Source of the DNA: an uncultured Magnetococcales bacterium
GTDB lineage: Bacteria; Pseudomonadota; Magnetococcia; Magnetococcales; CAYFNE01
DNA: 64,000 bases
Assembly (NCBI GenBank): GCA_964344355.1
Contig: CAYFNE010000020.1
Span: 120 to 64,119, forward strand
Direction of reading: 5' to 3'
The position numbers were made by a program, and so were the translations under genes. Shown piece by piece: positions 28,909 to 46,852 of the stretch. Below the pieces are notes generated by a model. It made no database searches. It saw only the letters and a list, made by a program, of their open reading frames with translations, and had not been told where the DNA came from. How positions within the stretch are numbered: the stretch's first letter is position 1; each line of letters starts with the position of its first letter.

Positions 28909-28909
28909 G

Positions 28910-30469
28910 TCACGCCTGCTGTTGCCGTTTGGCGGCAGCGCTGCGCACCCACCAGAACTCACCGGCGAACAGGAGCAGGGCGATCAAGATGCCGATCATC
29001 AACGGTTTGTTGCTGGGCGGCGGTTCGAGCAACAACCAGTACCAGGTGGTCATGGTGTGTTTGGAGCCGCTCTCGCTGTTGCTGCCGTCCCAGGCGGCAA
29101 AGGCGATGGGGATGAAACGGCCCTCTTCGAACTGAAGATCGTTTTCAGCATCTCCGGTCTTCAAGGAACGACGCATCACCACTTTCCAGACGCCATCGGC
29201 ATAGCCGCCCTTGACCGTCAAACCACCGCTGGCGGCATCCCGGGGTTCGATGGCGCCGAATCCCTTGGCATTCATCAGCACGGCGCTCTCGGTGCCATCT
29301 TTGGCGCCGCTTTTCCACTGCCAGATGTTGACCGGATGGGAGGTGTCGCCCATGCCGAAATAGGGCTTTTTCATCCCCTTGGGAATGACCACCGGCAGTT
29401 GCACGGCGACGGCGTCCTCATACAGTTCCTCGTCGGCGATGCTGGCGGCGGTCTCGTCTCCGGGGATGCTCCGGGTGCGGTCATCCCACTCCAGTTGAAT
29501 GGCGATCTCCTTGTCGTTATAGAGCGCCCGGGCGGAAATGGTGTCGTTGGAAGGGGTGAAAAACCGTTCCTTGCCGATGATCTGCGGGATCAAATAGAAG
29601 GTGGAAGGGGCGGCACCGTTCCAGGCGGCGTCATCCGGACCCTCCGGCAGGGCGCCTTCGACGCGCGTGGCCTTGATGACGGTGTTTTCCGCCTTGACCT
29701 TTTTACTGTTGGCGGCCAGGGAGACGACATAGTTGGCGACGTGCCAACGCTCCTCGACGGAGAGCTTTTTCTTGCTCACCGGATCGGCGAAGGAGGGCAT
29801 CTGCGTACCGGGGATGCCGACGGAGATGCGGGCGTAAATGTCCTTGGCGCTGTTGCTGCCGCGAAACGTCCAGGGCTTGGTCAGGTTGCGCGGCCAGGTG
29901 CGCTCTTCGAGGTCCCCCTTGAGCTTTTTGATGGCGACACCATTACCGGCCTTGCCGTGACACTCGGCGCAACGGTCGATGAACAACTCCTTGCCCTTGG
30001 CGAGACTTTCGGGGGAGGACGGCACCGGGGTACCGAAATCGACCTGGGTTTCGGCCTTTTCCTCGATTTCCGTGAACACCTTGATCTGCGCCACCAGGTC
30101 CCATATCTCCTGTTCCTTGAGGATATCGGCCCAGCCCGGCATGGCGGTCCCCGGCATGCCGTCGCGGATCATCCGGAAAATGTCCTCATCGTTGGGAATG
30201 AAATCCTCGAAACCGGTGGTCTTGATCTTGTACACGCCGCTGGTGAAATCCCGGGGCGGCGGGTTCATGAACGCCTGTCCCGGCCCGTCGCCGGCGCCCT
30301 CGGCGCCATGGCACCAGACACACCGTTTATTGTAAATCTCCAGCCCCTTGGCGGCATCGCCGCTCTTGGCCGCGGCCGGAGTGGCGAGGACGGTGAAAAA
30401 CATCACGGCCAGTACCCGTCCCAGGGTCGAAGCCGATAGAAATCGTTTGTTCATAGCGCTCATTTCCAT
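28910..30469 (-). CDS. Dihaem c-type cytochrome fused to an EB_dh/DOMON-like haem-binding domain, C-terminal TM anchor
   Basis: 'CVWCHG' and 'CAECHG'. C-terminal half matches the ethylbenzene-dehydrogenase gamma-like pattern ('ALYNDKEIAIQLEWDD', 'PVNIWQWKS', 'DGVWKVVMRRSL', 'FAAWDGSNSESGSKH'). Terminal TM 'LMIGILIALLLFAGEFWWV'. Start is 30469, 30463 or 30454. Confidence 0.8.
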   Translation of the reverse strand: MEMSAMNKRFLSASTLGRVLAVMFFTVLATPAAAKSGDAAKGLEIYNKRCVWCHGAEGAGDGPGQAFMNPPPRDFTSGVYKIKTTGFEDFIPNDEDIFRMIRDGMPGTAMPGWADILKEQEIWDLVAQIKVFTEIEEKAETQVDFGTPVPSSPESLAKGKELFIDRCAECHGKAGNGVAIKKLKGDLEERTWPRNLTKPWTFRGSNSAKDIYARISVGIPGTQMPSFADPVSKKKLSVEERWHVANYVVSLAANSKKVKAENTVIKATRVEGALPEGPDDAAWNGAAPSTFYLIPQIIGKERFFTPSNDTISARALYNDKEIAIQLEWDDRTRSIPGDETAASIADEELYEDAVAVQLPVVIPKGMKKPYFGMGDTSHPVNIWQWKSGAKDGTESAVLMNAKGFGAIEPRDAASGGLTVKGGYADGVWKVVMRRSLKTGDAENDLQFEEGRFIPIAFAAWDGSNSESGSKHTMTTWYWLLLEPPPSNKPLMIGILIALLLFAGEFWWVRSAAAKRQQQA

Positions 30470-30470
30470 C

Positions 30471-31238
30471 TTATTCGTGCCCCCAGGACCGCGGACGGTG
30501 GCCGGTGTAATCATAAAGGAAGAGAATCACCTTCCAGATCTCATCCTCGGTCAGAAAATCCTGCCAGATGGGCATGGAGGAGATCCACGGCGCCGCCTCC
30601 TCGGGCAGGCCCGGACCACCGGTGGCGATACGCCAGAACAGGAATCCCTCCTGCAACTGGGCGATGGTGCCGACATCCTGGAAGTTCAGGGGCACCGGAT
30701 TGAGACCGGGGGCGTAGGGTCCTTTGCCATCCAGTTTGTCGCCATGGCAATATTGGCAGTTTTGGATATAAACCGCGCCGCCCTCTTTGACCAACTCCTT
30801 GAACTTGGCCGGATCCTCTTTTTCGAACTTGCGGTAGGGATTTTCCAGCTTGCTCAGGTTGTACCGTTTGCCAAAGGCCTTGATCGAAGCCGGCGGGGCC
30901 GGGTGGATGCTGCGCAGTTCCAACGGCGCTTCATATTTGGGCTGCATCTTGACGAAACCGTAATAGCCGGCCGCCAACGGCACGACCAGGAACACGATGT
31001 TGCGCAACCATTTTTTCTTCGGGTCCTCCACCAGGGCGACGATCGGCCCGACCAGCTCCCGGGTACGCTCCTCGGAGAAGGTGAAGACGCAGAAGACGCC
31101 GGCGATGGAAAAAAACATGTACATGGTCAACAGACTGGCCGGGATCAACTGCCCCAACCAGACATCGAAGACCAGGATGAACCCGTAATAGATGGCCAGT
31201 ATCGTCAGGGCCGCTTGCAGAAGTCTTGGAATTTTCAT
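30471..31238 (-). CDS. Membrane-anchored (3 TM) monohaem cytochrome c
   Basis: Three N-terminal hydrophobic helices, then 'CQYCHG' and distal 'SSMPIW' Met-ligand region. Confidence 0.8.
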   Translation of the reverse strand: MKIPRLLQAALTILAIYYGFILVFDVWLGQLIPASLLTMYMFFSIAGVFCVFTFSEERTRELVGPIVALVEDPKKKWLRNIVFLVVPLAAGYYGFVKMQPKYEAPLELRSIHPAPPASIKAFGKRYNLSKLENPYRKFEKEDPAKFKELVKEGGAVYIQNCQYCHGDKLDGKGPYAPGLNPVPLNFQDVGTIAQLQEGFLFWRIATGGPGLPEEAAPWISSMPIWQDFLTEDEIWKVILFLYDYTGHRPRSWGHE

Positions 31239-31258
31239 CGTTCTCGCCTCAGCGCCCC

Positions 31259-32089
31259 CTATTTCGAACCCGCCAGATAGTCCACGAGCATTTCAAGCTC
31301 CTTGGCATACAGTTGTTCTCCGAGCCCCTCCGGCATCATGCCGGCATCGAACCCTTCCGCCACATCGGCGTTGGGGTCGAGCAGGGCCCGGCGCAGATAG
31401 TCCTTGTCCTTGGCGGCGCCGATTTTGGTCAAATCGGGACCCAACTCTCCCACCTCGTCGCCGATCTTGTGACAGGCGCCGCAGGTATTGGCGGCGATGA
31501 TCTCCTCGACCGTCGCATAGAGGGCCCGGGCGCCGCCGCCGTCACCGCTGTCTTCCTCCTCGGCCGCCGCCGCGGCGTCACCGGCATCGGAGGGGATCTC
31601 AACGGTGTTTTCCAGACCATTGGAGTCCAGCATGTAGGCGATCACCGCCTTGATCTCGACATTGGACAGGCTGATGCCGCCACCGGAAACATCGGGCATC
31701 GGACTTTCGGTGTCGTTGGAACCGGCCTTGCCGAATCCCGCCACCACATAGGCGGAGGGTTGCACCAGGGACTCTTCCAGATAGGCCGCCGGTTCCTTGT
31801 TTTCACCGCTGTAGCGGGAATCGGCGAACCGTTTGGGCACGTTTTCCCCCAACTTGTCGAGCATCGGCGCCCGGCCCAGGGAGTTGTGACAGAGGGTGCA
31901 GGTCCCCTTGCCGTTGACGATGCGCTCACCCAGGGCGATGAACTGGTCCATGTCCATGGCGCTCAGGTCGATCTTTTCCGGCTTGGGCGGCGCCGCCGGG
32001 GTGATCTGGGGAATGCCGAAGGAGGAATAACCGGCAAAGGCGAAGATGACCAGCAGGCTGAATACCGCGACTTTCAAAAAATTCTTCAT
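31259..32089 (-). CDS. Periplasmic dihaem cytochrome c
   Basis: Signal peptide 'MKNFLKVAVFSLLVIFAFAG', 'CTLCHN' and 'CGACHK'. RBS GGGGAG. Confidence 0.85.
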   Translation of the reverse strand: MKNFLKVAVFSLLVIFAFAGYSSFGIPQITPAAPPKPEKIDLSAMDMDQFIALGERIVNGKGTCTLCHNSLGRAPMLDKLGENVPKRFADSRYSGENKEPAAYLEESLVQPSAYVVAGFGKAGSNDTESPMPDVSGGGISLSNVEIKAVIAYMLDSNGLENTVEIPSDAGDAAAAAEEEDSGDGGGARALYATVEEIIAANTCGACHKIGDEVGELGPDLTKIGAAKDKDYLRRALLDPNADVAEGFDAGMMPEGLGEQLYAKELEMLVDYLAGSK

Positions 32090-32099
32090 GATCGCTCCC

Positions 32100-33962
32100 C
32101 TACTCCTTCCAATAACCGGACGGCGCGGTCTTCTTGCCGCTGACCGTGCTCAGCCAGAAGACGAAGATGACCATGGCCATGAAGATGATGGTTCCGGCCG
32201 AAACGACGTTGGCGGCATAACCCAGGGTCGGCGTGAAGGCGTCGGGTGAGTTGTCACGCATGATGTCGACCACGTGCCAGTGCTGACGGATACCGGAGCG
32301 GATGTAACCCATGAGTCCCATCAACCAGGTGAAGGAGACCGCCAGCAGGAACAGGGCATACTGGGATTGGGTCGGCATCCGTCCCCAACGCAACGGGGCC
32401 ACCTCCTTGGCGCCCTTGTACATCAACGAGTCCAACACGCCACTGGCGATGATGATCACCAACGTCGTCAGCACCTGGGGAATGGAGGCCGCCACCTTGT
32501 AGACGGTGTTGGTGAAATAGCCGTAGAAAACACCGAGAATGAGGATGTTGATGATACCGGTGGTGAACAGGGCCACCTGGGCGGCGTTGCCGGCCTTGAC
32601 CCAGGGCACCACCGGTACCTTGTTGGCCCGCCGATAGTAGAGAAAACTCAGGGCGGTGAAGAGAATCATGATGTTCACGGCGGTGTTCTTGGCCGGCATG
32701 ATGCCCAACGGTCCCAGATATTTGTGATAGGGTCCGCCCAGGGCCTGAAGCTCCTGGTTGGTCAACACCAGGGTGTGCGGGGTGAACCAGACCAGGAAGG
32801 CGCCGACGATGACGAAGGCCAACCATTTGATGCGCCCGGTGTAACGGTGCGCCCCCTCGCTGCGGCCCATGCCGCACCAGAGGTAATAGTTGGCCGACAG
32901 GAACAGGGTGCCGATCAACACCGCCTGGATGATGAACAACCAGGCGAAGACGCCACCCATGAGGGTGATACCCATCTGTTGGCTGTAGGCATAGATTTCG
33001 GCGGTCAGATAATATCCGGCGAAGGGCAGCGGCAGCAGGGCGGAGATGGCGACGAAATTGGCGTTGTAACCCATCCAGTCATAATGGGCCCGATCCTCGG
33101 CCTTGGTGGCGCTGAGAAACTTGAAGGCGGCATAGGCGCCGACCACCGAACCACCGTAGGCGACGTTGGCCACCACGCGGTGCAGGTTGATCGGGTTCCA
33201 GAGGAAGTTGTGCATGGCGGCCCAGGTGTCGCCGGAGAAGGTGCCGGCGGCATCGACGCCGGCCGGGCTCATCATGAAGGTGAGCCAGGCGTTGGCCAGC
33301 AACATCAACACGGTGCCGACGGCGTTCAACATCAGGCCCAGGGTCAGATGCACCCATTTCCGGAAACCACCCTGGAGCCAGTGCCAACCGTAATAATAGA
33401 TGTACAGACAGGCGCTCTCCGCGAAGAACAGGAGCGCATAGTAGAACATCGACTCCTTGAATATGGTGGAGAGATAGAAGAACAGGTCGGGATAGAAGAC
33501 GATGAGGCCGAACGCCAGCAGACCGCCGAGGATGGCCGTCAGGGAGTAGGCGGTGATGCTGACCTTGATGAACTCATAGGCCATGTTGTCATAACGCCGA
33601 TCCCGGGTGCGCATGCCGATGGCTTCGATGATGAACACGAAGATCGGCACCGCCAGGACGAAGGCGGCGAACCAGAGATGCAGTTGCGCCACCAGCCAGA
33701 CGAAGACCCGGCTGTTGATGCCGGCGATCTGCGGATAGTCCTTTTCGGTCAGCTCGGGGGCCGGCCCGTACAGCGGTTTTTCGGCCTCGGCGGCCCCATC
33801 CCCGGCGGCGGACTCAGGGGCGGCCTCTTCGGCCCAGGCGGTGGAGAATCCCAGATGCTCCGAGGAGAACTCCGCCAGGGGAGCCCCCCACTGCAACAGC
33901 ATCACTGTCAGGAGGGTGATGGTGAAAAACCATCCCGGTTTCAGAAAAAAGCGCGGCCTCAT
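32100..33962 (-). CDS. CydA-like integral membrane subunit (cytochrome bd superfamily), no CydB partner
   Basis: 'VFVWLVAQLHLWFAAFVLAVPIFVFIIEAIG' parallels E. coli CydA '[28 protein letters not shown]' (His19). 'NPINLHRVVANVAYGG' parallels 'NPVAQVKFVHTVASGY' (His186). 'IRQHW' parallels 'GRQPW'. Extra N-terminal TM segment and Ala/Glu-rich linker. Confidence 0.8.
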   Translation of the reverse strand: MRPRFFLKPGWFFTITLLTVMLLQWGAPLAEFSSEHLGFSTAWAEEAAPESAAGDGAAEAEKPLYGPAPELTEKDYPQIAGINSRVFVWLVAQLHLWFAAFVLAVPIFVFIIEAIGMRTRDRRYDNMAYEFIKVSITAYSLTAILGGLLAFGLIVFYPDLFFYLSTIFKESMFYYALLFFAESACLYIYYYGWHWLQGGFRKWVHLTLGLMLNAVGTVLMLLANAWLTFMMSPAGVDAAGTFSGDTWAAMHNFLWNPINLHRVVANVAYGGSVVGAYAAFKFLSATKAEDRAHYDWMGYNANFVAISALLPLPFAGYYLTAEIYAYSQQMGITLMGGVFAWLFIIQAVLIGTLFLSANYYLWCGMGRSEGAHRYTGRIKWLAFVIVGAFLVWFTPHTLVLTNQELQALGGPYHKYLGPLGIMPAKNTAVNIMILFTALSFLYYRRANKVPVVPWVKAGNAAQVALFTTGIINILILGVFYGYFTNTVYKVAASIPQVLTTLVIIIASGVLDSLMYKGAKEVAPLRWGRMPTQSQYALFLLAVSFTWLMGLMGYIRSGIRQHWHVVDIMRDNSPDAFTPTLGYAANVVSAGTIIFMAMVIFVFWLSTVSGKKTAPSGYWKE

Positions 33963-33995
33963 GTTCGCTCCTGTGGCAACGGATGGTTCCGTGGA

Positions 33996-34130
33996 TTATT
34001 GGTGAAAAAACAGTGAGAGACCCTGGAGATTCATCATGATGAAATCCAGAAGGAAAAAAATGCCTGCGCAAACCACGAAGGCGGCGCCGAACGCCATGAG
34101 CGCATTTTCCTGCAATTGCTTGAGGTTCAC
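33996..34130 (-). CDS. Mini-ORF, 44 aa, one TM (not in ORF track)
   Basis: GTG at 34130 is 5 nt after GGGAGG. 'VNLKQLQENALMAFGAAFVVCAGIFFLLDFIMMNLQGLSLFFHQ'. Ends 34 nt before the CydA-like start. Confidence 0.45.
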   Translation of the reverse strand: MNLKQLQENALMAFGAAFVVCAGIFFLLDFIMMNLQGLSLFFHQ

Positions 34131-34141
34131 ATCGGCCTCCC

Positions 34142-34246
34142 TTACAAAAACCAGATGAAGAAAATGATGATGGCCACCAGGACCGTGGTAAACAGCGCGG
34201 GCCCGGCCCAGGTGGGAAGTTCTTTCGGAGTTCCCGCTTCACTCAT
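34142..34246 (-). CDS. Mini-ORF, 34 aa, one TM (not in ORF track)
   Basis: ATG at 34246. 'MSEAGTPKELPTWAGPALFTTVLVAIIIFFIWFL'. Its stop lies 11 nt upstream of the next mini-ORF start codon (34130) and directly abuts that ORF's GGGAGG RBS. Confidence 0.5.
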   Translation of the reverse strand: MSEAGTPKELPTWAGPALFTTVLVAIIIFFIWFL

Positions 34247-34346
34247 GATATCACCTGCCGTGTCGTCCGAATGGAGTGATGGAAAAACGGCGCACCCCGG
34301 GGCACGAACCGTCAACCGCTACAAAAATGTTCAAGAAGCACTCAAT

Positions 34347-34457
34347 CTATAAAACAAAAAAATAGAGAATGGCGACGATCACCAGTACGTTGGTGGCCAT
34401 GCCGGCAAAGATGACGATATCGGATATTTTGGCTTTCGAAAAAAAACTTTTTGCCAC
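34347..34457 (-). CDS. Mini-ORF, 36 aa, one TM (not in ORF track)
   Basis: GTG at 34457 follows GGAGGGGAG. 'VAKSFFSKAKISDIVIFAGMATNVLVIVAILYFFVL'. Confidence 0.45.
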   Translation of the reverse strand: MAKSFFSKAKISDIVIFAGMATNVLVIVAILYFFVL

Positions 34458-34533
34458 GCTCCCCTCCATCGGCGACTAAACGGGCCGGGGCTCCGAACGG
34501 ATACCCCGGCCCGATCGACCGGGCAATCTGGCG

Positions 34534-34908
34534 CTATTGTTTGCCCTTGCAATTACAGAGTTGGCGCAAGTAGGCGACCATCGCCTCGACTTCATCCTTG
34601 GCCAGGGTTTTCGACCAGGGGGGCATGACCGGGGATTTGCTCAGGGCCGGACCGCCGGACAGGATGACGTTGCGGAGGTCTTCATCGGAGAGCTTGTTCA
34701 TATCCGCGGCCTTGGTAAAGTTTCGTGGCGTGACCGGCATGCTCTTGGTGACGTTGGGGCCATCGCCCTTACCGGTGATGCCGTGGCACTGGGCACAGTA
34801 AAAATCGTAGACCTCCTTGCCATCCGCCGCCCGGGCATCGAGGCCCGTCAACACGCCGGAAGCGAGAAACAGTGCCCCGACCACCATGGATCCTTTTATT
34901 TTCAACAT
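34534..34908 (-). CDS. Periplasmic monohaem class I cytochrome c
   Basis: Signal peptide, 'CAQCHG', distal 'SPVMPPW'. Confidence 0.9.
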   Translation of the reverse strand: MLKIKGSMVVGALFLASGVLTGLDARAADGKEVYDFYCAQCHGITGKGDGPNVTKSMPVTPRNFTKAADMNKLSDEDLRNVILSGGPALSKSPVMPPWSKTLAKDEVEAMVAYLRQLCNCKGKQ

Positions 34909-34927
34909 GGTCTGACTCTCTCTCCAA

Positions 34928-35587
34928 TTATTTGAAATGGGCGACGTGACCGGCCACTTTTTTCATGTCCTTGTCTCTGATCAACCCCGTGAAGTTGGGC
35001 ATCATTTTCACCGGTTTGAACACCTTGGGCTGGCTCAGATAGGCGTAGATCCAATCCGGGTTGAGCCGTTTGCTGGCACCGACCAGGGACGGGGCGCTGA
35101 GACCGCCGACGATTTTCTTTTTGCGGTTGGGATAGAGATGACAACCGCTGCAGGGCATCTTTTTGGTGAAAATCCGCTTGCCCTTAATGTTCTTCTTGGC
35201 CTTGACGACACCGGCCTTGACCTTGCCGGATTTCAGGCCCATCAGATAACCGGTCACCGCCTTGGCGTCACCGGCGCCCAACTTGGGATGATCCCCGGCA
35301 TTTTTCTCGGTCAGCGAATTATACTTCAAGGGCCGGATCGGCTCCGGGTTGACCAGCCAGGTGGCCAGCCATTTTTCCTGGAACTTGTCGCCGGCGTACC
35401 AGAGTTCCGGACCCTTCTGGGCCAGTTTGTCGGCGATGGTTTTTTCCCGGGCCGGCCCTTGGGTGTAGTGACAGGCGTCACACTTGTTGTCCTTGAACAC
35501 CTGTTCCCCCGATGCATCCGCCCGACCGGGAAGCGCCGCCAGGATCAGAAACGCCAATCCCAGGGTCAGCGTGACCGTTTGTCTCAT
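34928..35587 (-). CDS. Periplasmic dihaem cytochrome c (first gene of the minus-strand train)
   Basis: Signal peptide 'MRQTVTLTLGLAFLILAALPGRADA', 'CDACHY' and 'CSGCHL'. RBS AAGGAGAGG. Confidence 0.85.
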   Translation of the reverse strand: MRQTVTLTLGLAFLILAALPGRADASGEQVFKDNKCDACHYTQGPAREKTIADKLAQKGPELWYAGDKFQEKWLATWLVNPEPIRPLKYNSLTEKNAGDHPKLGAGDAKAVTGYLMGLKSGKVKAGVVKAKKNIKGKRIFTKKMPCSGCHLYPNRKKKIVGGLSAPSLVGASKRLNPDWIYAYLSQPKVFKPVKMMPNFTGLIRDKDMKKVAGHVAHFK

Positions 35588-35953: not shown

Positions 35954-35967
35954 TTGACCTATATCAA
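35954..35967. promoter_or_regulatory. FNR/CRP-family palindrome TTGACCTATATCAA
   Basis: Near-perfect match to TTGAT-N4-ATCAA, in the divergent gap between the cytochrome train and the nosZ-like train. Confidence 0.55.
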
Positions 35968-36194
35968 TTAACTTCAATTGCCGGCCAGCTCGTTTATAAA
36001 TGGCCGTCTCCCCGGCCGGCCAAACCGGGGGCCGGAAACGAGGATCGAAAATCATCCCCATGGCCGCCCCTCCCAACCGGTCGCAACCGCCGCCGCCACT
36101 CCGGAACACCGCGGTACGATCCGACCGCATCCCTTGCGGGATCGGAGCTCCGCCCCCTATACTTGACCCGGATCAATAACCGGCCAACGGTTAA

Positions 36195-36452: not shown

Positions 36453-38225
36453 ATGGGAAACAAAAGGTTGAAAAGAATGGCGGGCGCCGTGATTCCGGGG
36501 ATGATTCTCTCCCTGATGGCTTTCGCCCCAACGAAGGCGGAGGCCGTCACGGCCTCGAACGTGGCGCCCTGGCAACACGGCACCGAGGTGCCGGCGGGTA
36601 GCCCGACCAAGGATCCGATGCTCCTCTACGGGGCGGGCGGTCTCGACGGCAAGGTTTCGGTGATCGGTCTGCCGAGCATGCGCACCTTCCGTCACATCGA
36701 TGTCGGCGTGGATCTGCACGAACCGGTGTTCAGCGGCACCAACCAGGGCAACAAGAACGGCACCCCGGACGGTAAATATCTGTACGTCAACGACAAGGGC
36801 GCCAACACCGTCGGCGTCATCAATCTGCAGACCGGCTTCCTGGAGCGGCTGATCGCCCTGCCCTTCCCCTTCGGCGTGCATCACATCTCCCTGGACGACA
36901 CCGGTAAAATTCTCTACGCCACCGGTGAGTTGACCGGCAAGATGGCCAAGATCGACATCGCCTCCGGCAAGACCCAGGTGATCGACTGGGGTCCGGCCCC
37001 CAGCGCCCCGGACTATCTGGACGTGGACAAAAAAGGCCGTTATGTCTTCTCCGGCAACTACTACCACTCCACCGTCGGTGTGTTCTCGACCAATCCTTTC
37101 AAGTACATCAAGGAGATCCCGGTCGGCAAGAACCCCCACGGCACCGATGTCATCCCGGAAAGCACCATGGTGATCGTCAGCGACAAGCTGTCCGCCACCA
37201 TGACCGTGATCGATGTGGAAAAGCTGGCGGTCAAGAAGGTTCTGCCCACCTGCGCCGGTCCGCTGCACTCGGTGATGGACGTTTACGACAAGGATGGCGG
37301 CACCTATGAGCCCGGCAAGGACAGCCCCGAGGGACTGACCTCCAAATATGCCTATGAGAGCTGCTTCGTCTCCGACAGTAACGTCAAGATCGATCTGAAA
37401 AAACTGGAAGTGGTCGACGAAATCCCGACCCACTACCGTACCGGTCACATCGCCATCAGCGCCGACAACAAGTATGTCATCGCCCTGAACAAGTTTTCCA
37501 CCGGTCTGTTCAGCCCCACCGGCGTCGTCTTCCCGGTCAACTTCGAGTTGTGGGACGCCCGCGAGGACAGCCCGACCTACGGCAAGACCCTGCGCATCAC
37601 CCCGGTGGACGGCGAGCCGCACAACGCCAAATCCATCCATGCCTATCAGATCAAACGGTGGAACACCGGACAGGCTGAAAAGGGCGGGCTGATCAAAGGC
37701 AACACCCGTCTCATTCATCCGGCCCACCGCGCCAAGGCCAAGGTCTCCTTCCTGCCCAAATCCAAGGAGCGCCCCGGCGTGCGCATGGTTGACGGCGTGA
37801 AAGAGGTTCACTTCAAGGCCTTCAGCTACGGCTACATCCCCCGTCAGGTGCGCGTCAACAAGGGTGACAAGGTTCGCATGTTCGTCACCAACATCGACCG
37901 CGCGTCGGGTATCACCAAAAACCCCGACGTCACCATGGGCCTGACCGTCTACGGTCCCTATGGTCTGCGCACCAACCTCAGCGCCCCGCGTGGCGTGACC
38001 GCGGTTACCGAGTTCGAAGCTGATATCGCTGGCGAATATGCCATCTACTGTCAGCATTTCTGCGGTCCGCTGCATCTGGAGATGCGCGGAACGTTCTTCG
38101 TCGATGATCCCGACAAGGATGATTCCAACCTGGCCGTCGGTGACTATGACAAGGCCCAGAAACTGCCCGGCCTGGTCGAACACGAAGACGAGCTGGAAAT
38201 CGCCCCCCGGGCTCAGGAACTCTGA
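36453..38225 (+). CDS. nosZ: Divergent nitrous-oxide-reductase-like multicopper protein (Sec signal, propeller + CuA cupredoxin)
   Basis: Blocks 'DGKYLYVNDKGANTVGVINL', 'GKNPHGTDV', 'GPLHSVMD', 'YRTGHIAIS', 'GEPHNA' and the CuA motif 'YCQHFCGPLHLEM'. ATG at 36453 preferred over the track TTG at 36432. Confidence 0.8.
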   Translation: MGNKRLKRMAGAVIPGMILSLMAFAPTKAEAVTASNVAPWQHGTEVPAGSPTKDPMLLYGAGGLDGKVSVIGLPSMRTFRHIDVGVDLHEPVFSGTNQGNKNGTPDGKYLYVNDKGANTVGVINLQTGFLERLIALPFPFGVHHISLDDTGKILYATGELTGKMAKIDIASGKTQVIDWGPAPSAPDYLDVDKKGRYVFSGNYYHSTVGVFSTNPFKYIKEIPVGKNPHGTDVIPESTMVIVSDKLSATMTVIDVEKLAVKKVLPTCAGPLHSVMDVYDKDGGTYEPGKDSPEGLTSKYAYESCFVSDSNVKIDLKKLEVVDEIPTHYRTGHIAISADNKYVIALNKFSTGLFSPTGVVFPVNFELWDAREDSPTYGKTLRITPVDGEPHNAKSIHAYQIKRWNTGQAEKGGLIKGNTRLIHPAHRAKAKVSFLPKSKERPGVRMVDGVKEVHFKAFSYGYIPRQVRVNKGDKVRMFVTNIDRASGITKNPDVTMGLTVYGPYGLRTNLSAPRGVTAVTEFEADIAGEYAIYCQHFCGPLHLEMRGTFFVDDPDKDDSNLAVGDYDKAQKLPGLVEHEDELEIAPRAQEL

Positions 38226-38277: not shown

Positions 38278-38397
38278 CGTATCCGGATCGATGCATGACC
38301 CCGTTTCCCCGCCCTCCCCGCGATGGCGGGGAAACGGCCCGGAACCATAAATTTTATCGATTGGAACAGACGACCCGTGATCGACAAAGCGTTATGG

Positions 38398-38880
38398 ATG
38401 GCGACCCGCCTGGCAACCCTGGTTTTTTCGACCATGATCCTGCTGGGTGGTTGTGGGGAGGGTCCACAGGAGAGCCATAAACCGTTGCCGACGGAAAAAC
38501 CGGAAGCGGTGGTCAGTAAATTTTACGAATATATTTCGGAGGCGGGTATTCGCGGCGGCACCATCCCCATCAAGGAAGCCTACAAGATGGTCAGCCCGGC
38601 GACACGGATGAGCCAGCAACGGTTCGTCGGCATCGTCAAAAAATATCCACCCGGTTTCAAGGCCGAAATCGTCGACAGCCGAATCAAGGAAAAGGAGCGT
38701 CAGGCGGTGGTCACCATCGAATACCGGATGGCCTCCATGTTCGGCAAAGGTTACAAGGTCAGCACCAGACTGCCATTGGTGGTGGATGAGGAAAAAGGGG
38801 TTTGGCTGATCGATTTCACCGGTGAATCAGACGATCAGGATGCGGCGGCCATGAAAAAAAATACGGCGAAGGTGAAATAG
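38398..38880 (+). CDS. Small lipoprotein, unknown function
   Basis: Lipobox 'MILLGGC' after 'MATRLATLVFST'. Soluble alpha+beta-looking domain. ATG at 38398 is in frame within track ORF 38323..38880. Confidence 0.65.
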   Translation: MATRLATLVFSTMILLGGCGEGPQESHKPLPTEKPEAVVSKFYEYISEAGIRGGTIPIKEAYKMVSPATRMSQQRFVGIVKKYPPGFKAEIVDSRIKEKERQAVVTIEYRMASMFGKGYKVSTRLPLVVDEEKGVWLIDFTGESDDQDAAAMKKNTAKVK

Positions 38881-39516
38881 ATGGCCATGGGACTCATCGA
38901 CTGGCTGGAGCAGCGCACCGGCCTGGTGACCTGGCGGAAAAACAAGGGTGACCAGGCCATCCCGGCCCACATGGGTTTTTTGCGTTGTTTCGGTGGCATC
39001 TCCCTGCTGTTCATCATCCTGCAGGTGATTTCCGGCACCTTCATGCTCTTCCATTATCAGCCGCAGCCGCAGGAGGCGCTGAGGAGCATCGAACAGATGA
39101 GCAACGAAGTACCTTTCGGGGCGCTGTTCCGCAACCTGCACCGTTGGGGGGCGACGCTGTTGATGGCGACCATCTTTTCACACATGGTCAGCGTCGGTTT
39201 TCAAAAGGCCTATCGCAACCCGCGTGAATTGAACTGGGTTTCCGGGGTCCTGCAGCTCATCGTCGTTTTTCTGCTGTTGGCCACCGGTCTGTTGTTGCCG
39301 TGGGATTGGCGTTCCTACTGGTCGTTCGCCCTGTGGGTGGACTATCTGGAGACCTGGCCGTTGATCGGTGGTTGGCTGAAAGAGGCCCTGTTGGACAATT
39401 TCACCATCAACCGGGGATTCGTGATCCACATCCTGGTCCTTCCCCTGGTGTTGTTGATCCTGCTCCGGTTCCACTTTGGCATGGTGCGGCGTCACGGCAT
39501 CGCCGAGCCGCTGTAG
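38881..39516 (+). CDS. Cytochrome b6-like dihaem membrane subunit (cytochrome b N-terminal domain)
   Basis: 'LHRWGATLLMATIFSH' (H-x13-H) and 'IHILVLPLVLLILLRFH' (H-x14-H), plus 'LLPWDWRSYW'. Confidence 0.85.
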   Translation: MAMGLIDWLEQRTGLVTWRKNKGDQAIPAHMGFLRCFGGISLLFIILQVISGTFMLFHYQPQPQEALRSIEQMSNEVPFGALFRNLHRWGATLLMATIFSHMVSVGFQKAYRNPRELNWVSGVLQLIVVFLLLATGLLLPWDWRSYWSFALWVDYLETWPLIGGWLKEALLDNFTINRGFVIHILVLPLVLLILLRFHFGMVRRHGIAEPL

Positions 39517-39529
39517 GAGTCGGATCGAT

Positions 39530-40216
39530 ATGGACAGTGACAAAACGTCGCCGGATATGAAGATCGATCCCAAATACGCCGAGCCGTATCCCCAGGCGTT
39601 CTACCGGTTCTGGCCGCGGCACGTGATCATGGTGGTGATCATCGCCGGCGCCTTCATGGGATTGTTGTTTTGGTTGGCCAACCAGTATCCATTGCCGACC
39701 GATCAAAACATGCCGCCGATGCCCGATGAAGGGGCCTATATCCCGGCGCCGGAATGGTATCTGTTCATGCTGTTCCAGCCATTCTGGTATCTGACCGGCG
39801 ACAACGCCTGGTTGCGGCCGCTGGGCACCTTCTGGCTGCCGCTGTTGATCCTGATCGGACTGGTGGCGCTGCCGTTCGTTTTCGGCAGGAAGCGCGCCGC
39901 CGGCGGTCGGATGAAATTGTTGAAACGGTTGGGCATCGGCCTGATCGGCCTGGTGGTCTGGACCGCCGGCATGGCGGCGGTCGGCGGCAGTGGTTATCCG
40001 GCCAAGACCAACGGCTGCATCTCCTGCCACAACCCGATGATGGGGGTCCGGCAGGCGCTGCCGCCGAGCGACATGGGCAAGTTTTACCGGGAAAAGCGGC
40101 AACAGCAGATCGAGGTCGGCCGCTACCGGATTGGCAACACCATGGGAATGGGCGACTCCTACAAGGATGCCAACTGGCAACTGCGGCATTTTTACGAGCC
40201 GACGATGACATGGTAG
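39530..40216 (+). CDS. Subunit-IV-like membrane protein (cytochrome b C-terminal domain) fused to a C-terminal haem c motif
   Basis: 'IPAPEWYLFMLFQPFWYL' PEWY-type segment, three TM segments, 'CISCHN'. ATG at 39530 after GGAG. Confidence 0.75.
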   Translation: MDSDKTSPDMKIDPKYAEPYPQAFYRFWPRHVIMVVIIAGAFMGLLFWLANQYPLPTDQNMPPMPDEGAYIPAPEWYLFMLFQPFWYLTGDNAWLRPLGTFWLPLLILIGLVALPFVFGRKRAAGGRMKLLKRLGIGLIGLVVWTAGMAAVGGSGYPAKTNGCISCHNPMMGVRQALPPSDMGKFYREKRQQQIEVGRYRIGNTMGMGDSYKDANWQLRHFYEPTMTW

Positions 40217-41472
40217 TTCCAAGGAGTGGCGGGACATTCGGCGCTGGAAGCCGGCGGTCCGGGTACGGGCCGATGATGGTCCTGGCGCTATTGGCGGTCG
40301 TGGTGGTCACCCGGGTGACCCCGGTAGAGGCCACGGCGGCGAAAAAGGGGGATTCGATCATCACCGAATATCGGTTGCCCGAGGCGGTCAGTGCCCCATC
40401 GGGCATTGTGGTCGACGTCCCGGGACGGGTCTGGTTCACGGAAAAGATCGGAAAAAGTTTGACTATGTTCGATCCGGAGGGAAAACAATTCGAGGTTCAC
40501 ACCCTCCCCGATACCTGGAAAGGGATCGGGCCGTTGCGCATCGCCCTGGCCCCGGACGGTTCCATCTGGTTCACGGTCCGTCGTTGGGCCGACACCGAAA
40601 CGCCGACCAACCTGTTGGGCCGGTACACGCCGGCCAGCAACCGGTTTGACCGTTTCGACCTGCCCGATGGCATGGTGCCGGAAGATCTGGTGGTGGCTGA
40701 TGATGGCAGCGTCTGGTTTCTGGATCCGGACAGCAACCGGTTGCACCGGTTCCAACCGGAGACGGCGGCCTTGGAGAGTCATGCCATTCCCACCGCCAAC
40801 GGCTATCCGCGGCGCCTGGTACTGGATGGCCAGGGGGCGCTCTGGTTCGCCCAGTCCAATATCAACGGCATCGCCCATTTCGATCCGGTCGGCAAACGGT
40901 TTCAGGAGTACCGGATCCCGACCCCCTTCGCCAATCCGGGGGCGGTGGCGGTCGATGGCGCCGACAATGTCTGGTTCGTGGAGATGACCGCCAACCGTAT
41001 CGGGGTGTTCTACCCGTCGATGCAACGGTTCGACGAGGCCATGGTACCGACGGCGCGCGGTCTGCCCAACGCCATCGCCGCCGACGCCGGCGGCAACATC
41101 TGGTTTCTGGAGTACCGCGGCAACAAGGTGGGACTGTTCCTGCCCAAGGCCGCCGCTTTCCACGAGTTCACCATTCCCACCTATGACAGTCAACCGGGTG
41201 AGATGGCCCTGGATCGTTCGCGCAACCGGCTGTGGTTTTCCCAGGCCAGCACCGAATCGAAAAAGCTGGGACTGCTCGACATCGAGCGGGCGCTGGCGGC
41301 CAGCGCGCATCCACAACCGGAGCTTGACAAGAGCGCCGGAGGGATCGCCCAACGGGCCGCCGACGGCAAACGGTCGCGGGATATGGTCCGCATCCTGATC
41401 ACCATCATGATGGTCATCGTCTTCGTCGCCGGTTATCTCTACTACCGGCGTTTCAACAAGGTGTCACCGTGA
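40210..41472 (+). CDS. Seven-blade Vgb/COG4257-like beta-propeller protein with N-terminal signal and C-terminal TM anchor
   Basis: Repeated 'G..WFTE/WFLE/WFVE' blades (PGRVWFTE, DGSIWFT, DGSVWFLD, GALWFAQ, DNVWFVE, GNIWFLE, NRLWFSQ). Tail 'MVRILITIMMVIVFVAGYLYY'. ATG at 40210 overlaps the upstream stop. The earlier part of track ORF 39754.. overlaps the previous gene. Confidence 0.75.
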   Translation: MVVPRSGGTFGAGSRRSGYGPMMVLALLAVVVVTRVTPVEATAAKKGDSIITEYRLPEAVSAPSGIVVDVPGRVWFTEKIGKSLTMFDPEGKQFEVHTLPDTWKGIGPLRIALAPDGSIWFTVRRWADTETPTNLLGRYTPASNRFDRFDLPDGMVPEDLVVADDGSVWFLDPDSNRLHRFQPETAALESHAIPTANGYPRRLVLDGQGALWFAQSNINGIAHFDPVGKRFQEYRIPTPFANPGAVAVDGADNVWFVEMTANRIGVFYPSMQRFDEAMVPTARGLPNAIAADAGGNIWFLEYRGNKVGLFLPKAAAFHEFTIPTYDSQPGEMALDRSRNRLWFSQASTESKKLGLLDIERALAASAHPQPELDKSAGGIAQRAADGKRSRDMVRILITIMMVIVFVAGYLYYRRFNKVSP

Positions 41473-42473
41473 GGGCGGCGGTCCCCTTCCGGGCCTTGAT
41501 TGCCGCCTCGCTGTTGGCCGGGGCGTTGATGAGCACCGCGGTGGTCCATGCGGCCGCCATCGTTTCCCATCCGCTGCCAACCGCCGTGGCCATGGCGTCG
41601 CAGATCGCCATCGACAAGGCCGGGGATGTTTGGTTCATCGAAGGCAACGCCAATCAGATCGGCCGGTTCCGGTTGGCCGATGGCACGTTCCGTGAGTTCA
41701 AGATTCCGACCCTGGGCAGTCAACCGGCGGACATCACCATCGATGGGACGGGGCACATCTGGTTCACCGAGTCGGACGCCAACCAGTTGGGTCGTTTCGA
41801 CCCGGCCACGGAGGCCTTCACCGAATATGACATCCCCACCATCGACAGCATGCCGACCCGGTTGGTCGCCGCTGGTGGCGCGGTCTGGTTCACCGAATTC
41901 TATGGTAACCGGATCGGTCGTCTGGATACGGCCAGCGGCGCCATCCGCGAATATCCACTGCCGACCGCCGACGCCCAGCCCACCGGCATCACCGTCGATG
42001 ATGCGGGCATCGTCTGGTTCCTGGAAACGCGCGGCAACAAGCTGGGACGCCTGGATCCCGCCGATGGCGGCATCGTCGAGTTCGAGTTGCCCACCCCTTT
42101 TTCGGTGCCGCGCGATTTGATCGCCGCCGGTACCGGCAAGCTTTGGTTCGGGGCGCGCAGCCGGCAACAACTGCTCTCCTTCGACCCGGCCACCAGGCGA
42201 TTCGATACCTTCCCCATTCCCGGCGGCGGCGCCATCGAGGGGTTGGCGGTCAATGATGAGGGGCAGATTCTTTTTTCACTGGGACGCTCTGGCAAACTGG
42301 GACTGTTCGATCCGGTCGGCCAGGCGTTTGCGGCGTTCGACGCCTTGTCCGGGGACAGCCGTCCTTTCGGGATCGATCTCGATCCCCGCGGGAACATCTG
42401 GTTCTCCGACATCGCCAAGAACGCCTTGGTGCGTGTTGATGGTAAAACGGTTTCTCAACTATTAATCCGATAA
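41469..42473 (+). CDS. Second seven-blade Vgb/COG4257-like beta-propeller protein (periplasmic)
   Basis: Signal 'LIAASLLAGALMSTAVVHA'. Blades GDVWFIE, GHIWFTE, GAVWFTE, GIVWFLE, GKLWFG, GQILFS, GNIWFSD. GTGA start/stop overlap. Confidence 0.8.
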   Translation: MRAAVPFRALIAASLLAGALMSTAVVHAAAIVSHPLPTAVAMASQIAIDKAGDVWFIEGNANQIGRFRLADGTFREFKIPTLGSQPADITIDGTGHIWFTESDANQLGRFDPATEAFTEYDIPTIDSMPTRLVAAGGAVWFTEFYGNRIGRLDTASGAIREYPLPTADAQPTGITVDDAGIVWFLETRGNKLGRLDPADGGIVEFELPTPFSVPRDLIAAGTGKLWFGARSRQQLLSFDPATRRFDTFPIPGGGAIEGLAVNDEGQILFSLGRSGKLGLFDPVGQAFAAFDALSGDSRPFGIDLDPRGNIWFSDIAKNALVRVDGKTVSQLLIR

Positions 42474-42508
42474 ATTCTTGCAGCTTTCTTTTGCACGGGG
42501 GCGATACG

Positions 42509-43456
42509 ATGAAACAAAGCAAAAAAATGTTGGTACTTGGAGCCATGAGTCTCGCGGTCTCTTTCACCCTGGCCGGCAGCGCCGAGGCTGCGGACAAGCG
42601 TTGTGTGCTCATGGACAACACCCGGGTCGAGTGCCCGGTCCGGAGCGATGCCGAGTTGGCCAAGGCGGCGGCCGCCTATGAAGCCGAGGCTGATGCCATG
42701 GCCAATGGCCAGTCGGGAAGCACCTACGGCATCGCGCCTTTCGACTACCTGACCGGTGTCGGCAAGCGGGCGAAGGTCGCCGATGGCTACAAGACCGCCA
42801 GCGGTTATGGCCATGATACCGGCAAGGTGGGCACCGAACTGTGGGATCGCGTGAAAAAGCCGGGCTCCGGCGAGACGGTCTACAACCAGTGGACCAACAA
42901 CTGGTCGCCGACCTTCAAGGACACCCTGGTTCCGGGTGCCGATCCCAACGAAGGCAAACAGTGGTACTATGTCTACTGCATCGGCTGCCACGGTTGGCTG
43001 CTCAATGGTGACGGACCCAACGCCGCCGAGTTGGATCCCAAACCGCGCGTCCTGACCGATGGTTCCTACATGAACAAAAAGTCCAACCTGCAACTGTTCC
43101 AGGTCATCAAGGGTGGTGGTGAAGCGGTCAGCCTCTCCCCGGTCATGCCCTCCTGGGGCAACTATCTGCAGGATCAGGACATCTGGAACATCGTCGCCTG
43201 GCTCCGCGCCATGGCCGATGTCAAACCGCCCACATCCGTCGAAGAGTACCTGAGCCCGAAATCCTCCTTCAAGCCGATCGCCGGTGACATCACGCCGCTG
43301 ACCGCCGCCAAGAACGATGATTTCCAAGAGGCCCAGGAGATGATGGAAGCCGGTGTCGCCGGCCGTGGCGGAGCCATCAAGGGCGCCGGTTATGTGGAAG
43401 GCGGCATGCGCAAGCCCCCGACCCACGTCAAATCCAAGGTCAAACAGGGATACTGA
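42509..43456 (+). CDS. Periplasmic monohaem cytochrome c with an N-terminal domain of unknown function
   Basis: Signal 'MKQSKKMLVLGAMSLAVSFTLAGSAEA', 'YCIGCHG', distal 'SPVMPSWG'. Confidence 0.85.
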   Translation: MKQSKKMLVLGAMSLAVSFTLAGSAEAADKRCVLMDNTRVECPVRSDAELAKAAAAYEAEADAMANGQSGSTYGIAPFDYLTGVGKRAKVADGYKTASGYGHDTGKVGTELWDRVKKPGSGETVYNQWTNNWSPTFKDTLVPGADPNEGKQWYYVYCIGCHGWLLNGDGPNAAELDPKPRVLTDGSYMNKKSNLQLFQVIKGGGEAVSLSPVMPSWGNYLQDQDIWNIVAWLRAMADVKPPTSVEEYLSPKSSFKPIAGDITPLTAAKNDDFQEAQEMMEAGVAGRGGAIKGAGYVEGGMRKPPTHVKSKVKQGY

Positions 43457-46327: not shown

Positions 46328-46852
46328 ATGAAAAAAATCGGGTTGATCATGATGGGGCTGCTGTTGGCCGCGGTATTGGGACTCGGTGGTCTCTTGTTGG
46401 TGCCCAACTCCATCGGCGAGGAGGTGTTGCGCAATGCCAAGGCGCGGGGTTATCTGCCCTATGATCCGGATGAAGCGGTGGCCATGGCCTATGAGCGGTG
46501 CGGGGGGTGTCATGAGGATGAAAAAATTCTCAAATATTGCGCCCGCTGCGGTCCACCCTTTATCGTTGTCGCCAATTTCATGCAAAAATATATCGACGTC
46601 GCCAACAGTCAGGGGGCGTCGATCCCGCCCTTCACCCAAGCGGAGTTGATCGCCATCATCCAGGTTTGGAACGGGCTGGTCGGCAACTGGGAGAAGGATT
46701 GGCGGCGGGAAGACCTGAAACATCTGCTGCGCGGCAATCAAGTCATGATCGACCTGCTGGAGACGCCGGTGGAACAACGGCCCATCGAGTCGGCCTTGAA
46801 GGACAGAAGCGCCCCCGGTTCCTACAAGGAAGTGGATCAATCGGGTGGCTGA
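46328..46852 (+). CDS. Membrane-anchored small protein with a single CXXCH motif
   Basis: N-terminal TM 'IGLIMMGLLLAAVLGLGGLLLV'. 'CGGCHEDEKILKYCARCG'. Confidence 0.6.
   Translation: MKKIGLIMMGLLLAAVLGLGGLLLVPNSIGEEVLRNAKARGYLPYDPDEAVAMAYERCGGCHEDEKILKYCARCGPPFIVVANFMQKYIDVANSQGASIPPFTQAELIAIIQVWNGLVGNWEKDWRREDLKHLLRGNQVMIDLLETPVEQRPIESALKDRSAPGSYKEVDQSGG

What the first reader, a model, noticed from the sequence alone, without database searches (positions are those of the whole stretch)
36453..38225. NosZ-like copper enzyme with substitutions in both a CuZ and a CuA ligand column
The protein has a Sec-type signal (MGNKRLKRMAGAVIPGMILSLMAFAPTKAEA, no twin-Arg), then a propeller region and a C-terminal cupredoxin. 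I aligned it by eye to the Pseudomonas stutzeri NosZ sequence as I remember it. The blocks match strongly: 'DGKYLYVNDKGANTVGVINL' ~ 'DGKYLFINDKANSRVARIRL', 'GKNPHGTDV' ~ 'KNPHGCN', 'GPLHSVMD' ~ 'GPLHTTFD', 'YRTGHIAIS' ~ 'YQPGHLHAS', 'GEPHNA' ~ 'AEPHDC', 'YCQHFCGPLHLEM' ~ 'YCSWFCHALHMEM'. Two ligand columns differ. The CuZ 'CHHPH' pair reads 'LHEPV', so the second His becomes Glu97 (nt 36720-36722, numbered from track start 36432). The CuA His of 'DVSHGF' reads 'DVTMGL', giving Met502 (nt 37935-37937). A loop of about 28 aa before the HH motif is absent, and an acidic tail of about 40 aa follows the CuA motif. I cannot place such a variant in the described clade I or II enzymes.
Basis: partly seen in the sequence, partly recalled or inferred. 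Interest (0 to 1): 0.85.

Follow-up and report, generated by a model that had tools for sequence, protein, structure and literature searches.

The report
Clade III nitrous-oxide reductase, Met-type CuA
The gene encodes a member of the lactonase-type (clade III) nitrous-oxide reductase family described in 2025, from a large uncharacterised sub-branch in which one histidine of the electron-entry copper site is always a methionine.

Summary
The protein is not an orphan. It scores 804 bits against NCBIfam NF052460 "clade III lactonase-type nitrous-oxide reductase" (cut-off 700), the L-NosZ family of He et al., Nature 2025.

The Glu is a family trait. Both clade III enzymes with physiological evidence (Desulfitobacterium nosdiversum Sab5, Sporomusa acidovorans Mol) carry it. 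So do they carry an extra invariant His next to the His178 equivalent.

The Met is not shared with those two enzymes, which keep His and lack the tail. Met plus a 33-44 aa acidic C-terminal tail define a monophyletic sub-branch ("M-type"). It covers 152 of 181 sampled protein clusters and all 79 species-representative loci that cover the column. Hosts include Magnetococcales, Zetaproteobacteria, Gallionellaceae, Desulfobacterota, Nitrospirota and Nitrospinota. I found no characterised member.

The window carries the conserved M-type gene neighbourhood and FNR-type boxes upstream. Most likely this is a periplasmic N2O reductase with a modified CuA site. The family is known; the sub-branch feature is worth a biochemical test.

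The parts
36453..38225 (+). L-nosZ (clade III lactonase-type N2O reductase, M-type), 590 aa plus stop. Alternative starts are TTG 36432 and ATG 36477.
36453..36545 (+). Sec-type signal peptide (31 aa, ...TKAEA), no twin-Arg motif
   Evidence: sequence
36717..36722 (+). H89-E90. These are the equivalents of P. stutzeri H129-H130 (CuZ). The second His is replaced by Glu.
36879..36884 (+). H143-H144. H143 is the H178 equivalent. H144 is an extra His, invariant in L-NosZ and Gly/Ser in clades I/II. It is a candidate compensating CuZ ligand (hypothesis).
37137..37139 (+). H229 (H326 equivalent, KNPHG)
37266..37268 (+). H272 (H382 equivalent, GPLH). It is followed by an M-type-specific insertion of about 18 aa.
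37446..37448 (+). H332 (H433 equivalent, YRTGH)
37620..37622 (+). H390 (H494 equivalent, GEPHN)
37935..37937 (+). M495 in the CuA His583 column (DVTMGL)
38049..38084 (+). CuA loop C533-Q-H535-F-C537-G-P-L-H541-L-E-M544. The Cys, Cys, His and Met ligands are kept. H535 sits in the Trp620 column.
38106..38222 (+). Acidic C-terminal tail (residues 552-590). It is present only in M-type proteins and is predicted disordered in the monomer model.
35954..35967 (.). FNR/CRP-type box TTGACCTATATCAA (1 mismatch) in the divergent intergenic region
36163..36176 (.). Second FNR/CRP-type box TTGACCCGGATCAA (1 mismatch), about 290 nt upstream of L-nosZ
38323..38880 (+). Conserved small protein with a probable lipoprotein signal (LLGGC) and no Pfam hit. 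It is found downstream of L-nosZ in 37/80 loci.
38881..40216 (+). Cytochrome b6-like gene (211 aa) plus a subunit-IV-like membrane protein with a CxxCH motif (about 228-246 aa). The pair also follows L-nosZ in the Desulfitobacterium-type locus.
40237..42473 (+). Two Vgb-lyase/NHL-like beta-propeller proteins. They are conserved in 41/80 loci.
42491..43456 (+). Mono-haem c-type cytochrome of about 320 aa. It is the most conserved neighbour (63/80 loci) and usually lies immediately downstream of M-type L-nosZ. It is absent from the one H-type locus examined. Proposed electron donor.
28910..35587 (-). Divergent cluster: di-haem c, mono-haem c, cytochrome bd subunit-I-like protein (620 aa), two c-type cytochromes, and a cytochrome c plus EB_dh haem-b-domain protein. 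It is co-conserved with M-type L-nosZ in 20-23 loci.
23871..28962 (-). Usp/PCP_red protein, radical-SAM/SPASM/PCP_red protein and an amine-oxidase-like flavoprotein. The trio is co-conserved in 27-32 loci.
46328..51161 (+). 174 aa hypothetical protein, ABC ATPase (GldA-like), ABC-2 permease (GldF-like), GldG-like auxiliary protein and DUF4340 protein. The module is co-conserved in 12-27 loci.
51165..55687 (+). SCO1/SenC copper chaperone, a hypothetical protein, a CcmH-like protein, a second hypothetical protein, two TlpA-like thioredoxins and a DsbD-like membrane protein. This is a candidate periplasmic copper-site maturation set.

Best explanation
The gene encodes a Sec-exported periplasmic nitrous-oxide reductase of the clade III (lactonase-type, L-NosZ) family. 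It sits in a sub-branch I call M-type.

Shown:
- Family membership.
- The two-domain NosZ fold.
- Six of the seven canonical CuZ histidines are kept.
- The CuA Cys-Cys-His-Met set is kept.
- His130 is replaced by Glu, and His583 by Met.
- The Met always occurs together with an acidic C-terminal tail and usually with a dedicated cytochrome c of about 320 aa.
- FNR-type boxes lie upstream.

Inferred:
- The enzyme reduces N2O to N2 at a CuZ-type cluster. The third copper would be held by His332 plus Glu90 and/or the extra His144.
- Electrons come from quinol through the adjacent cytochrome b6-like/subunit-IV-like pair, and perhaps the bd-like/cytochrome c cluster. They pass to the 320 aa cytochrome c and then to a CuA centre whose first copper has Met495 + Met544 + two Cys, in place of His + Met + two Cys.
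- The histidine flip that gates CuA in P. stutzeri cannot occur here. The tail and the cytochrome partner may take over docking or gating.
- Copper and sulfur insertion would rely on the SCO1/TlpA/CcmH-like set and the GldAFG-like ABC system, not on NosDFYL.
For: Family and fold:
- NF052460 L-NosZ scores 804 bits against a cut-off of 700.
- The protein is 43-46% identical to the two clade III enzymes with physiological evidence. The strain table is in PMC13274427.
- The NJ tree gives clade III 100/100 and M-type 100/100 bootstrap support.
- hhalign against clade I/II gives prob 100, E 4e-62 over 447 columns.
- The AF2 model (pTM 0.76) has NosZ structures as its best PDB matches, E about 1e-34.

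Ligand conservation:
- All ligand columns are strictly conserved across 77-80 species-level homologues. Met495 is present in 79/79.
- The conduit residues F621/E492/K454 named in PMC11573801 are conserved as F536, E388 and K347.

Context:
- The neighbourhood of cytochromes, the cytochrome b6 pair, SCO1 and TlpA is conserved across Magnetococcales, Gallionellales, Mariprofundaceae and Desulfobacterota.
- TTGAT-N4-ATCAA boxes lie upstream in 27/74 loci, 17 of them perfect. Shuffles give means of 2.5 and 0.12.
- A chemoreceptor with a nitrate/nitrite-sensing (NIT) domain lies in the same window.
Against: - Both organisms listed for clade III carry the His-type enzyme.
- In P. stutzeri, H130A gives an empty CuZ site and no activity (PMC8179356).
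- From my memory of Zhang et al., JACS 2021 (not held in the library): only protonatable residues at position 583 supported electron transfer. If so, Met would be predicted to fail in that scaffold.
- Position 90 is Asn in the Nitrospinota and Nitrospirota members, so it may not be a ligand at all.
- No nosD, nosL or nosR gene is in the window.
- Metal-site geometry could not be inspected, because no model coordinates were available.
Confidence: 0.62

Rival explanations
1. M-type proteins are functional copper enzymes, but N2O is not their physiological substrate. The changed CuA ligand, the tail, the 18 aa insertion next to His272 and the dedicated cytochrome would reflect a different reaction or redox window. 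Examples would be another small oxidant, or a role in the low-oxygen respiratory chains of iron oxidisers, magnetotactic bacteria and nitrite oxidisers.
For: - M-type is a separate, strongly supported branch only 43-46% identical to the assayed enzymes.
- It is co-conserved with a bd-like oxidase subunit cluster and with a radical-SAM/flavoprotein trio. Neither was matched in the one His-type locus examined.
- Hosts are mostly microaerophilic lithotrophs.
- FNR boxes fit any low-oxygen respiratory function.
Against: - Every residue that builds the N2O-reducing site in the assayed clade III enzymes, apart from the CuA His, is invariant in M-type.
- The protein passes the curated equivalog cut-off.
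- No alternative substrate is suggested by any domain.
Confidence: 0.25
2. M-type proteins are catalytically dead relatives, either pseudo-enzymes or electron carriers that only keep a CuA-like site.
For: Degenerate relatives do exist. The P0135 group lost all CuZ His but kept CuA. The P0127 group lost several His. P0121 lost the CuA Cys residues.
Against: - In the window protein and in 77-80 species-level homologues, all six His, the extra His, both Cys, His541 and Met544 are invariant.
- The degenerate groups fall below the family cut-off (283-596 bits). The window protein is above it.
Confidence: 0.05
3. The substitutions are an alignment artefact, and a His occupies both columns.
For: One profile-to-sequence alignment placed 'HE' elsewhere, in a low-accuracy segment.
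Against: - Four methods agree for Glu90. Six agree for Met495 (the same four).
- No His occurs in residues 453-534 of the cupredoxin domain (sequence). His453 (...KEVHFK...) precedes the stretch and is also present in the His-type enzymes.
- The His-type relatives align residue for residue with His opposite Met495.
Confidence: 0.02

Closest known systems
Clade III lactonase-type N2O reductase (L-NosZ) of Desulfitobacterium nosdiversum Sab5 (UniProt P0DXY7) and Sporomusa acidovorans Mol (P0DXY8); He et al., Nature 2025
   Same: - Same NCBIfam equivalog family.
- Same propeller-plus-cupredoxin architecture, Sec-type export and missing loop before the HH motif.
- Same His-Glu pair and extra His-His pair in the CuZ region.
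- Same 6-7 aa insertion before the first CuA ligand.
- A cytochrome b6-like gene pair downstream, ABC transporter genes nearby and no nosDFYL/nosR (D. nosdiversum-type locus L084 only).
   Different: - Only 43-46% identity.
- CuA first ligand is Met, not His.
- His, not Tyr, in the Trp620 column.
- A 39-40 aa acidic C-terminal tail.
- An insertion of about 18 aa after His272.
- A dedicated cytochrome c of about 320 aa, plus the bd-like and radical-SAM modules in the neighbourhood.
- Proteobacterial (Magnetococcales-like) host rather than Bacillota.
Clade I (TAT-dependent) NosZ, e.g. Pseudomonas stutzeri (PDB 3SBP) and Paracoccus denitrificans (1FWX)
   Same: - Same overall fold; these are the best Foldseek hits.
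- Six of the seven CuZ His, the CuA Cys-Cys-His-Met set and the F621/E492/K454 conduit are kept.
   Different: - About 21-30% identity.
- Sec, not TAT, signal.
- His130 replaced by Glu and His583 by Met.
- Extra His144.
- Several loops missing.
- No nosRDFYL genes nearby.
- Below the TIGR04244 cut-off (132 versus 625 bits).
Clade II (Sec-dependent) NosZ (TIGR04246)
   Same: Sec export and the same two copper-site frameworks.
   Different: - 179 bits against a cut-off of 625.
- Clade II members keep His-His in the CuZ region and the CuA His.
- No nosB/nosG/nosH-type genes were seen in the window.

Membership tests
Clade III lactonase-type N2O reductase (L-NosZ, NCBIfam NF052460) | Score at or above the curated equivalog cut-off (700 bits) over the full model | tested here: met
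   804.4 bits over model positions 1-480 of 480. The M-type representative P0007 scores 825 and the D. nosdiversum cluster representative scores 914.
Clade III lactonase-type N2O reductase (L-NosZ, NCBIfam NF052460) | Phylogenetic placement inside clade III, apart from clades I and II | tested here: met
   NJ tree of 44 sequences over 488 columns. Clade III bipartition is 100/100 and the M-type sub-branch is 100/100. The method is distance-based only.
Clade III lactonase-type N2O reductase (L-NosZ, NCBIfam NF052460) | Lactonase/YncE-type seven-bladed propeller plus C-terminal cupredoxin, with Sec signal | tested here: met
   Pfam YNCE, Lactonase, nos_propeller and Cupredoxin_1 hits. AF2 secondary structure and Foldseek matches to NosZ. 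Signal peptide read from the sequence.
Clade III lactonase-type N2O reductase (L-NosZ, NCBIfam NF052460) | CuZ-region residues as in the assayed members (H-E, H-H, H, H, H, H) | tested here: met
   The pattern is identical in the window protein, D. nosdiversum and S. acidovorans.
Clade III lactonase-type N2O reductase (L-NosZ, NCBIfam NF052460) | CuA ligand set as in the assayed members (His ... Cys-x3-Cys-x3-His-x2-Met) | tested here: not met
   The first His is Met495; the other four ligands are kept. I do not know whether the family's authors treat this His as defining, because the paper is not held.
Clade III lactonase-type N2O reductase (L-NosZ, NCBIfam NF052460) | Neighbourhood without canonical nos accessory genes but with cytochrome and transporter genes (as reported in PMC13477213) | tested here: met
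   No NosD, NosL or NosR domain was found in any major ORF of the window. Cytochrome b and c genes and ABC-2 transporter genes are present.
Clade III lactonase-type N2O reductase (L-NosZ, NCBIfam NF052460) | Catalyses N2O reduction to N2 | not testable with these tools
   Physiological evidence exists only for two His-type organisms.
Clade I NosZ (TIGR04244) | Curated cut-off of 625 bits; twin-arginine signal; His-His pair; CuA His | tested here: not met
   132.5 bits. No RR motif. H-E pair and Met495.
Clade II NosZ (TIGR04246) | Curated cut-off of 625 bits; His-His pair; CuA His | tested here: not met
   178.9 bits. H-E pair and Met495.

The most novel reading that the evidence does not exclude
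Most sampled clade III nosZ genes belong to a branch whose CuA centre naturally has Met in place of the gating histidine. These are the ones in Proteobacteria, Desulfobacterota, Nitrospirota and Nitrospinota. The Met has co-evolved with an acidic tail and a dedicated cytochrome c. No member has been assayed. If this has not been described, there are two possible outcomes. It may be a natural Cys2-His-Met2 CuA site with a new way of delivering electrons and protons to CuZ. Or a large share of the 'clade III nosZ' counted in metagenomes may not reduce N2O at all.
Probability: 0.35. Interest if true: 0.65.

Novelty: new member of a known kind. Interest (0 to 1): 0.45.

Why it matters
Clade III nosZ is now counted as an N2O sink in metagenome surveys. 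One lake-sediment study put it at 10-40% of nosZ abundance (PMC13477213).

The functional evidence rests on two Bacillota enzymes that keep the canonical CuA histidine. The window protein represents the much larger branch that does not keep it.

Showing whether Met-type enzymes reduce N2O would either validate or correct those sink estimates. It would also give bioinorganic chemists a natural variant of the CuA site at the residue proposed to gate electron and proton transfer in P. stutzeri NosZ.

The conserved neighbourhood also offers candidates for the unknown electron-donor and copper/sulfur-maturation systems of enzymes that lack NosRDFYL.

Tried and rejected
- He et al. 2025 (Nature 646:152) could not be read by DOI or PubMed id. 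The lake paper's supplement is not held. I therefore could not check whether the Met-type CuA site is already noted there.
- Literature searches found no discussion of clade III copper ligands.
- The JACS 2021 His583 mutagenesis paper is not in the library. I cite it from memory only.
- The AF2 job returned confidence and secondary structure but no coordinates. Distances from Glu90, His144 and Met495 to the metal sites could not be measured. The Foldseek TM score of about 0.5 with rmsd of about 15.7 Å probably reflects the inter-domain orientation in a monomer model.
- The hmmsearch of the M-type profile against PDB gave a different, low-confidence placement of the 'HE' pair. I rejected it in favour of four concordant alignments.
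- The ABC transporter as NosF/NosY: its best NCBIfam matches are GldA and GldF, both below cut-off, so I did not name it NosFY.
- Misalignment and pseudo-enzyme readings were considered and rejected (see rival explanations).
- The 80 genome loci are the most similar of 144 matches, so they are biased towards M-type. The 152-to-19 ratio of M-type to His-type clusters comes from two searches seeded with one protein of each type. It is not a census.
Full report
**1. Observation**

The window has an ORF at 36432/36453..38225 on the + strand. ATG 36453 is preceded by a G-rich stretch. A public gene call of the identical protein starts at ATG 36477 (P0001, 582 aa).

The N-terminus is a Sec-type signal without a twin arginine. 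All quoted motifs are present. Codon 36720-36722 is GAA (Glu90, in 'HEP'). Codon 37935-37937 is ATG (Met495, in 'DVTMGLT').

**2. Are the ligand columns correctly assigned?**

The following alignments bear on this:
- phmmer against PDB NosZ chains aligns 'epvfs...dgkylyvndk' with P. stutzeri 'hphis...dgkylfindk'. It aligns 'dvtmgl' with 'dvs[H583 variant]gf' and with 'dvthgf' of 1QNI.
- Two MAFFT alignments with clade I and II sequences give the same columns.
- hhalign of a 17-sequence M-type profile against an 11-sequence clade I/II profile gives prob 100 and E 4e-62. It pairs VDLHEPV with GDAHHPH, GVHHISL with TVHGLRV, and PDVTMGL with EDLTHGF.
- BLASTP to the D. nosdiversum enzyme puts Met495 opposite its His.
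- One hmmsearch alignment to PDB placed 'HE' elsewhere, in a low-accuracy segment. I discount it. The same alignment agrees on the Met495 column.

The resulting assignment for CuZ is: H129=H89, H130=E90, H178=H143, H326=H229, H382=H272, H433=H332, H494=H390. For CuA it is: H583=M495, C618=C533, W620=H535, C622=C537, H626=H541, M629=M544.

**3. What it is**

NCBIfam NF052460, 'clade III lactonase-type nitrous-oxide reductase' (equivalog), matches at 804 bits against a cut-off of 700. The clade I and II models reach only 132 and 179 bits against 625. Pfam sees YncE/lactonase propeller, nos_propeller and a weak cupredoxin.

An AF2 model (pLDDT 73, pTM 0.76) finds NosZ structures as its best PDB matches, at E about 1e-34.

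The family was published as L-NosZ by He et al., Nature 2025. That paper is cited in PMC13477213, PMC13122619 and PMC13502197 but is not held here.

**4. Which features are family-wide and which are not**

The organisms listed with physiological evidence for clade III are Desulfitobacterium nosdiversum Sab5 and Sporomusa acidovorans Mol (PMC13274427). Their proteins (UniProt P0DXY7 and P0DXY8) were recovered as P0270 and P0341. Both read VGVDTHEPVFSG and PHH, like the window protein. Both read HGF at the CuA column and end right after the cupredoxin domain.

So the Glu is a clade III trait. It comes with an extra His (H144) that is invariant in L-NosZ and is Gly or Ser in clades I and II. The number of candidate His ligands therefore stays at seven. 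Whether H144 actually binds copper is a hypothesis.

The Met is different. Among 181 cluster representatives:
- 152 have Met495 together with a 33-44 aa tail.
- 19 have His and no such tail. One of these, P0299, carries a fused cytochrome c domain.
- The remaining groups (P0127, P0135, P0121) have lost ligands and fall below the family cut-off.

In 80 species-representative genome loci most similar to the window protein, Met495 is present in 79/79. Position 90 is Glu in 65 and Asn in 12; the Asn forms are from Nitrospinota and Nitrospirota.

An NJ tree supports clade III (100/100) and the Met-type branch (100/100). The window protein is 43-46% identical to the assayed enzymes.

**5. Context**

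The window is collinear over 15-17 genes with two Magnetococcus MAGs, at a mean of 65% amino-acid identity.

These modules surround L-nosZ and recur around M-type genes in Gallionellales, Mariprofundaceae and Desulfobacterota:
- A divergent cluster with a cytochrome bd subunit-I-like protein, four to five c-type cytochromes and a haem-b (EB_dh) domain protein.
- A small lipoprotein, a cytochrome b6-like protein, a subunit-IV-like protein with a CxxCH motif, and two beta-propellers.
- A cytochrome c of about 320 aa. It is present in 63/80 loci and usually lies immediately downstream.
- A Usp/PCP_red, radical-SAM and flavoprotein trio.
- A GldAFG-like ABC system with a DUF4340 protein.
- SCO1/SenC, a CcmH-like protein, two TlpA-like thioredoxins and a DsbD-like protein.

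The Desulfitobacterium-type locus shares the cytochrome b6 pair but not the 320 aa cytochrome. No NosD, NosL or NosR domain occurs in the window.

Two near-consensus FNR-type boxes lie in the L-nosZ upstream region. Such boxes occur upstream of 27/74 M-type genes, 17 of them perfect. Dinucleotide shuffles give means of 2.5 and 0.12.

**6. Mechanism**

In P. stutzeri, Cu3 of CuZ is held by H130 and H433. H130A leaves the site empty and inactive. H583 flips between bound and unbound states, and this flip has been proposed to gate transfer to CuA (PMC8179356; PMC11573801).

The clade III solution at position 130 (Glu/Asn plus the extra His) evidently works, because His-type organisms respire N2O.

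For the Met-type branch I infer a CuA centre with Met495 and Met544 on the first copper and no histidine gate. I further infer that the co-evolved tail and the 320 aa cytochrome provide docking or gating.

My confidence that the protein is a clade III family member is about 0.95. My confidence that it is an active N2O reductase is about 0.6. The main rival is a different physiological substrate or role (about 0.25).

**7. Novelty**

The family is known, and the protein passes its curated model. What remains is a clear sub-branch feature, strictly conserved, for which I found no characterised member. I could not check whether the original paper notes it.

Noticed in passing
window 28910-35587 (- strand): A cluster encodes a cytochrome bd subunit-I-like protein (620 aa) with no recognisable subunit II. 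With it are four c-type cytochromes and a cytochrome c/EB_dh haem-b protein. The cluster is co-conserved with M-type L-nosZ in Magnetococcus, Gallionellales and Mariprofundaceae. It could be a quinol:cytochrome c module or a novel oxidase.
   Followed up: partly
window 23871-28962 (- strand): A trio of genes encodes a Usp protein with four PCP_red domains, a radical-SAM/SPASM/PCP_red protein and an amine-oxidase-like flavoprotein. The trio is found next to M-type L-nosZ in 27-32 of 80 loci. Its function is unknown; a maturation role is possible.
   Followed up: partly
window 35954-35967 and 36163-36176; loci L004-L070: FNR/CRP-type palindromes (TTGAT-N4-ATCAA) lie upstream of L-nosZ. They are strongly enriched across M-type loci: 27/74, against about 2.5 expected.
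   Followed up: yes
window 691-17707: A large chemotaxis gene cluster (CheR, CheB, CheD, CheA, CheW, CheY-like) includes three chemoreceptors. One of them (11924-14056, - strand) has a NIT nitrate/nitrite-sensing domain.
   Followed up: no
window 44978-46075 (+): A second cytochrome b gene is fused to a C-terminal membrane part with a CxxCH motif (365 aa). A periplasmic binding protein gene (43353-44765) precedes it. Both are collinear in the Magnetococcus MAGs.
   Followed up: partly
proteins P0121, P0127 group, P0135 group (not in the window): These are degenerate relatives of L-NosZ. P0135-type proteins lack all CuZ His but keep CuA. P0127-type proteins lack several His. P0121 (Nitrospinota, 1139 aa) lacks the CuA Cys residues and has a C-terminal extension of about 600 aa. 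All score below the family cut-off.
   Followed up: partly
protein P0299 (Chloroflexi MAG, 644 aa): This is a His-type L-NosZ with a C-terminal cytochrome c domain fused to it. It suggests that a c-type cytochrome is the direct electron donor in this family.
   Followed up: no
window 57161-59887 (- strand): A 908 aa molybdopterin oxidoreductase carries N-terminal 2Fe-2S/4Fe-4S (NuoG-like) domains. It resembles a formate dehydrogenase alpha subunit.
   Followed up: no
window 35588-36452: The 865 bp divergent intergenic region shows no coding-type codon bias. It is unusually long for this gene-dense window and contains both FNR-type boxes.
   Followed up: partly
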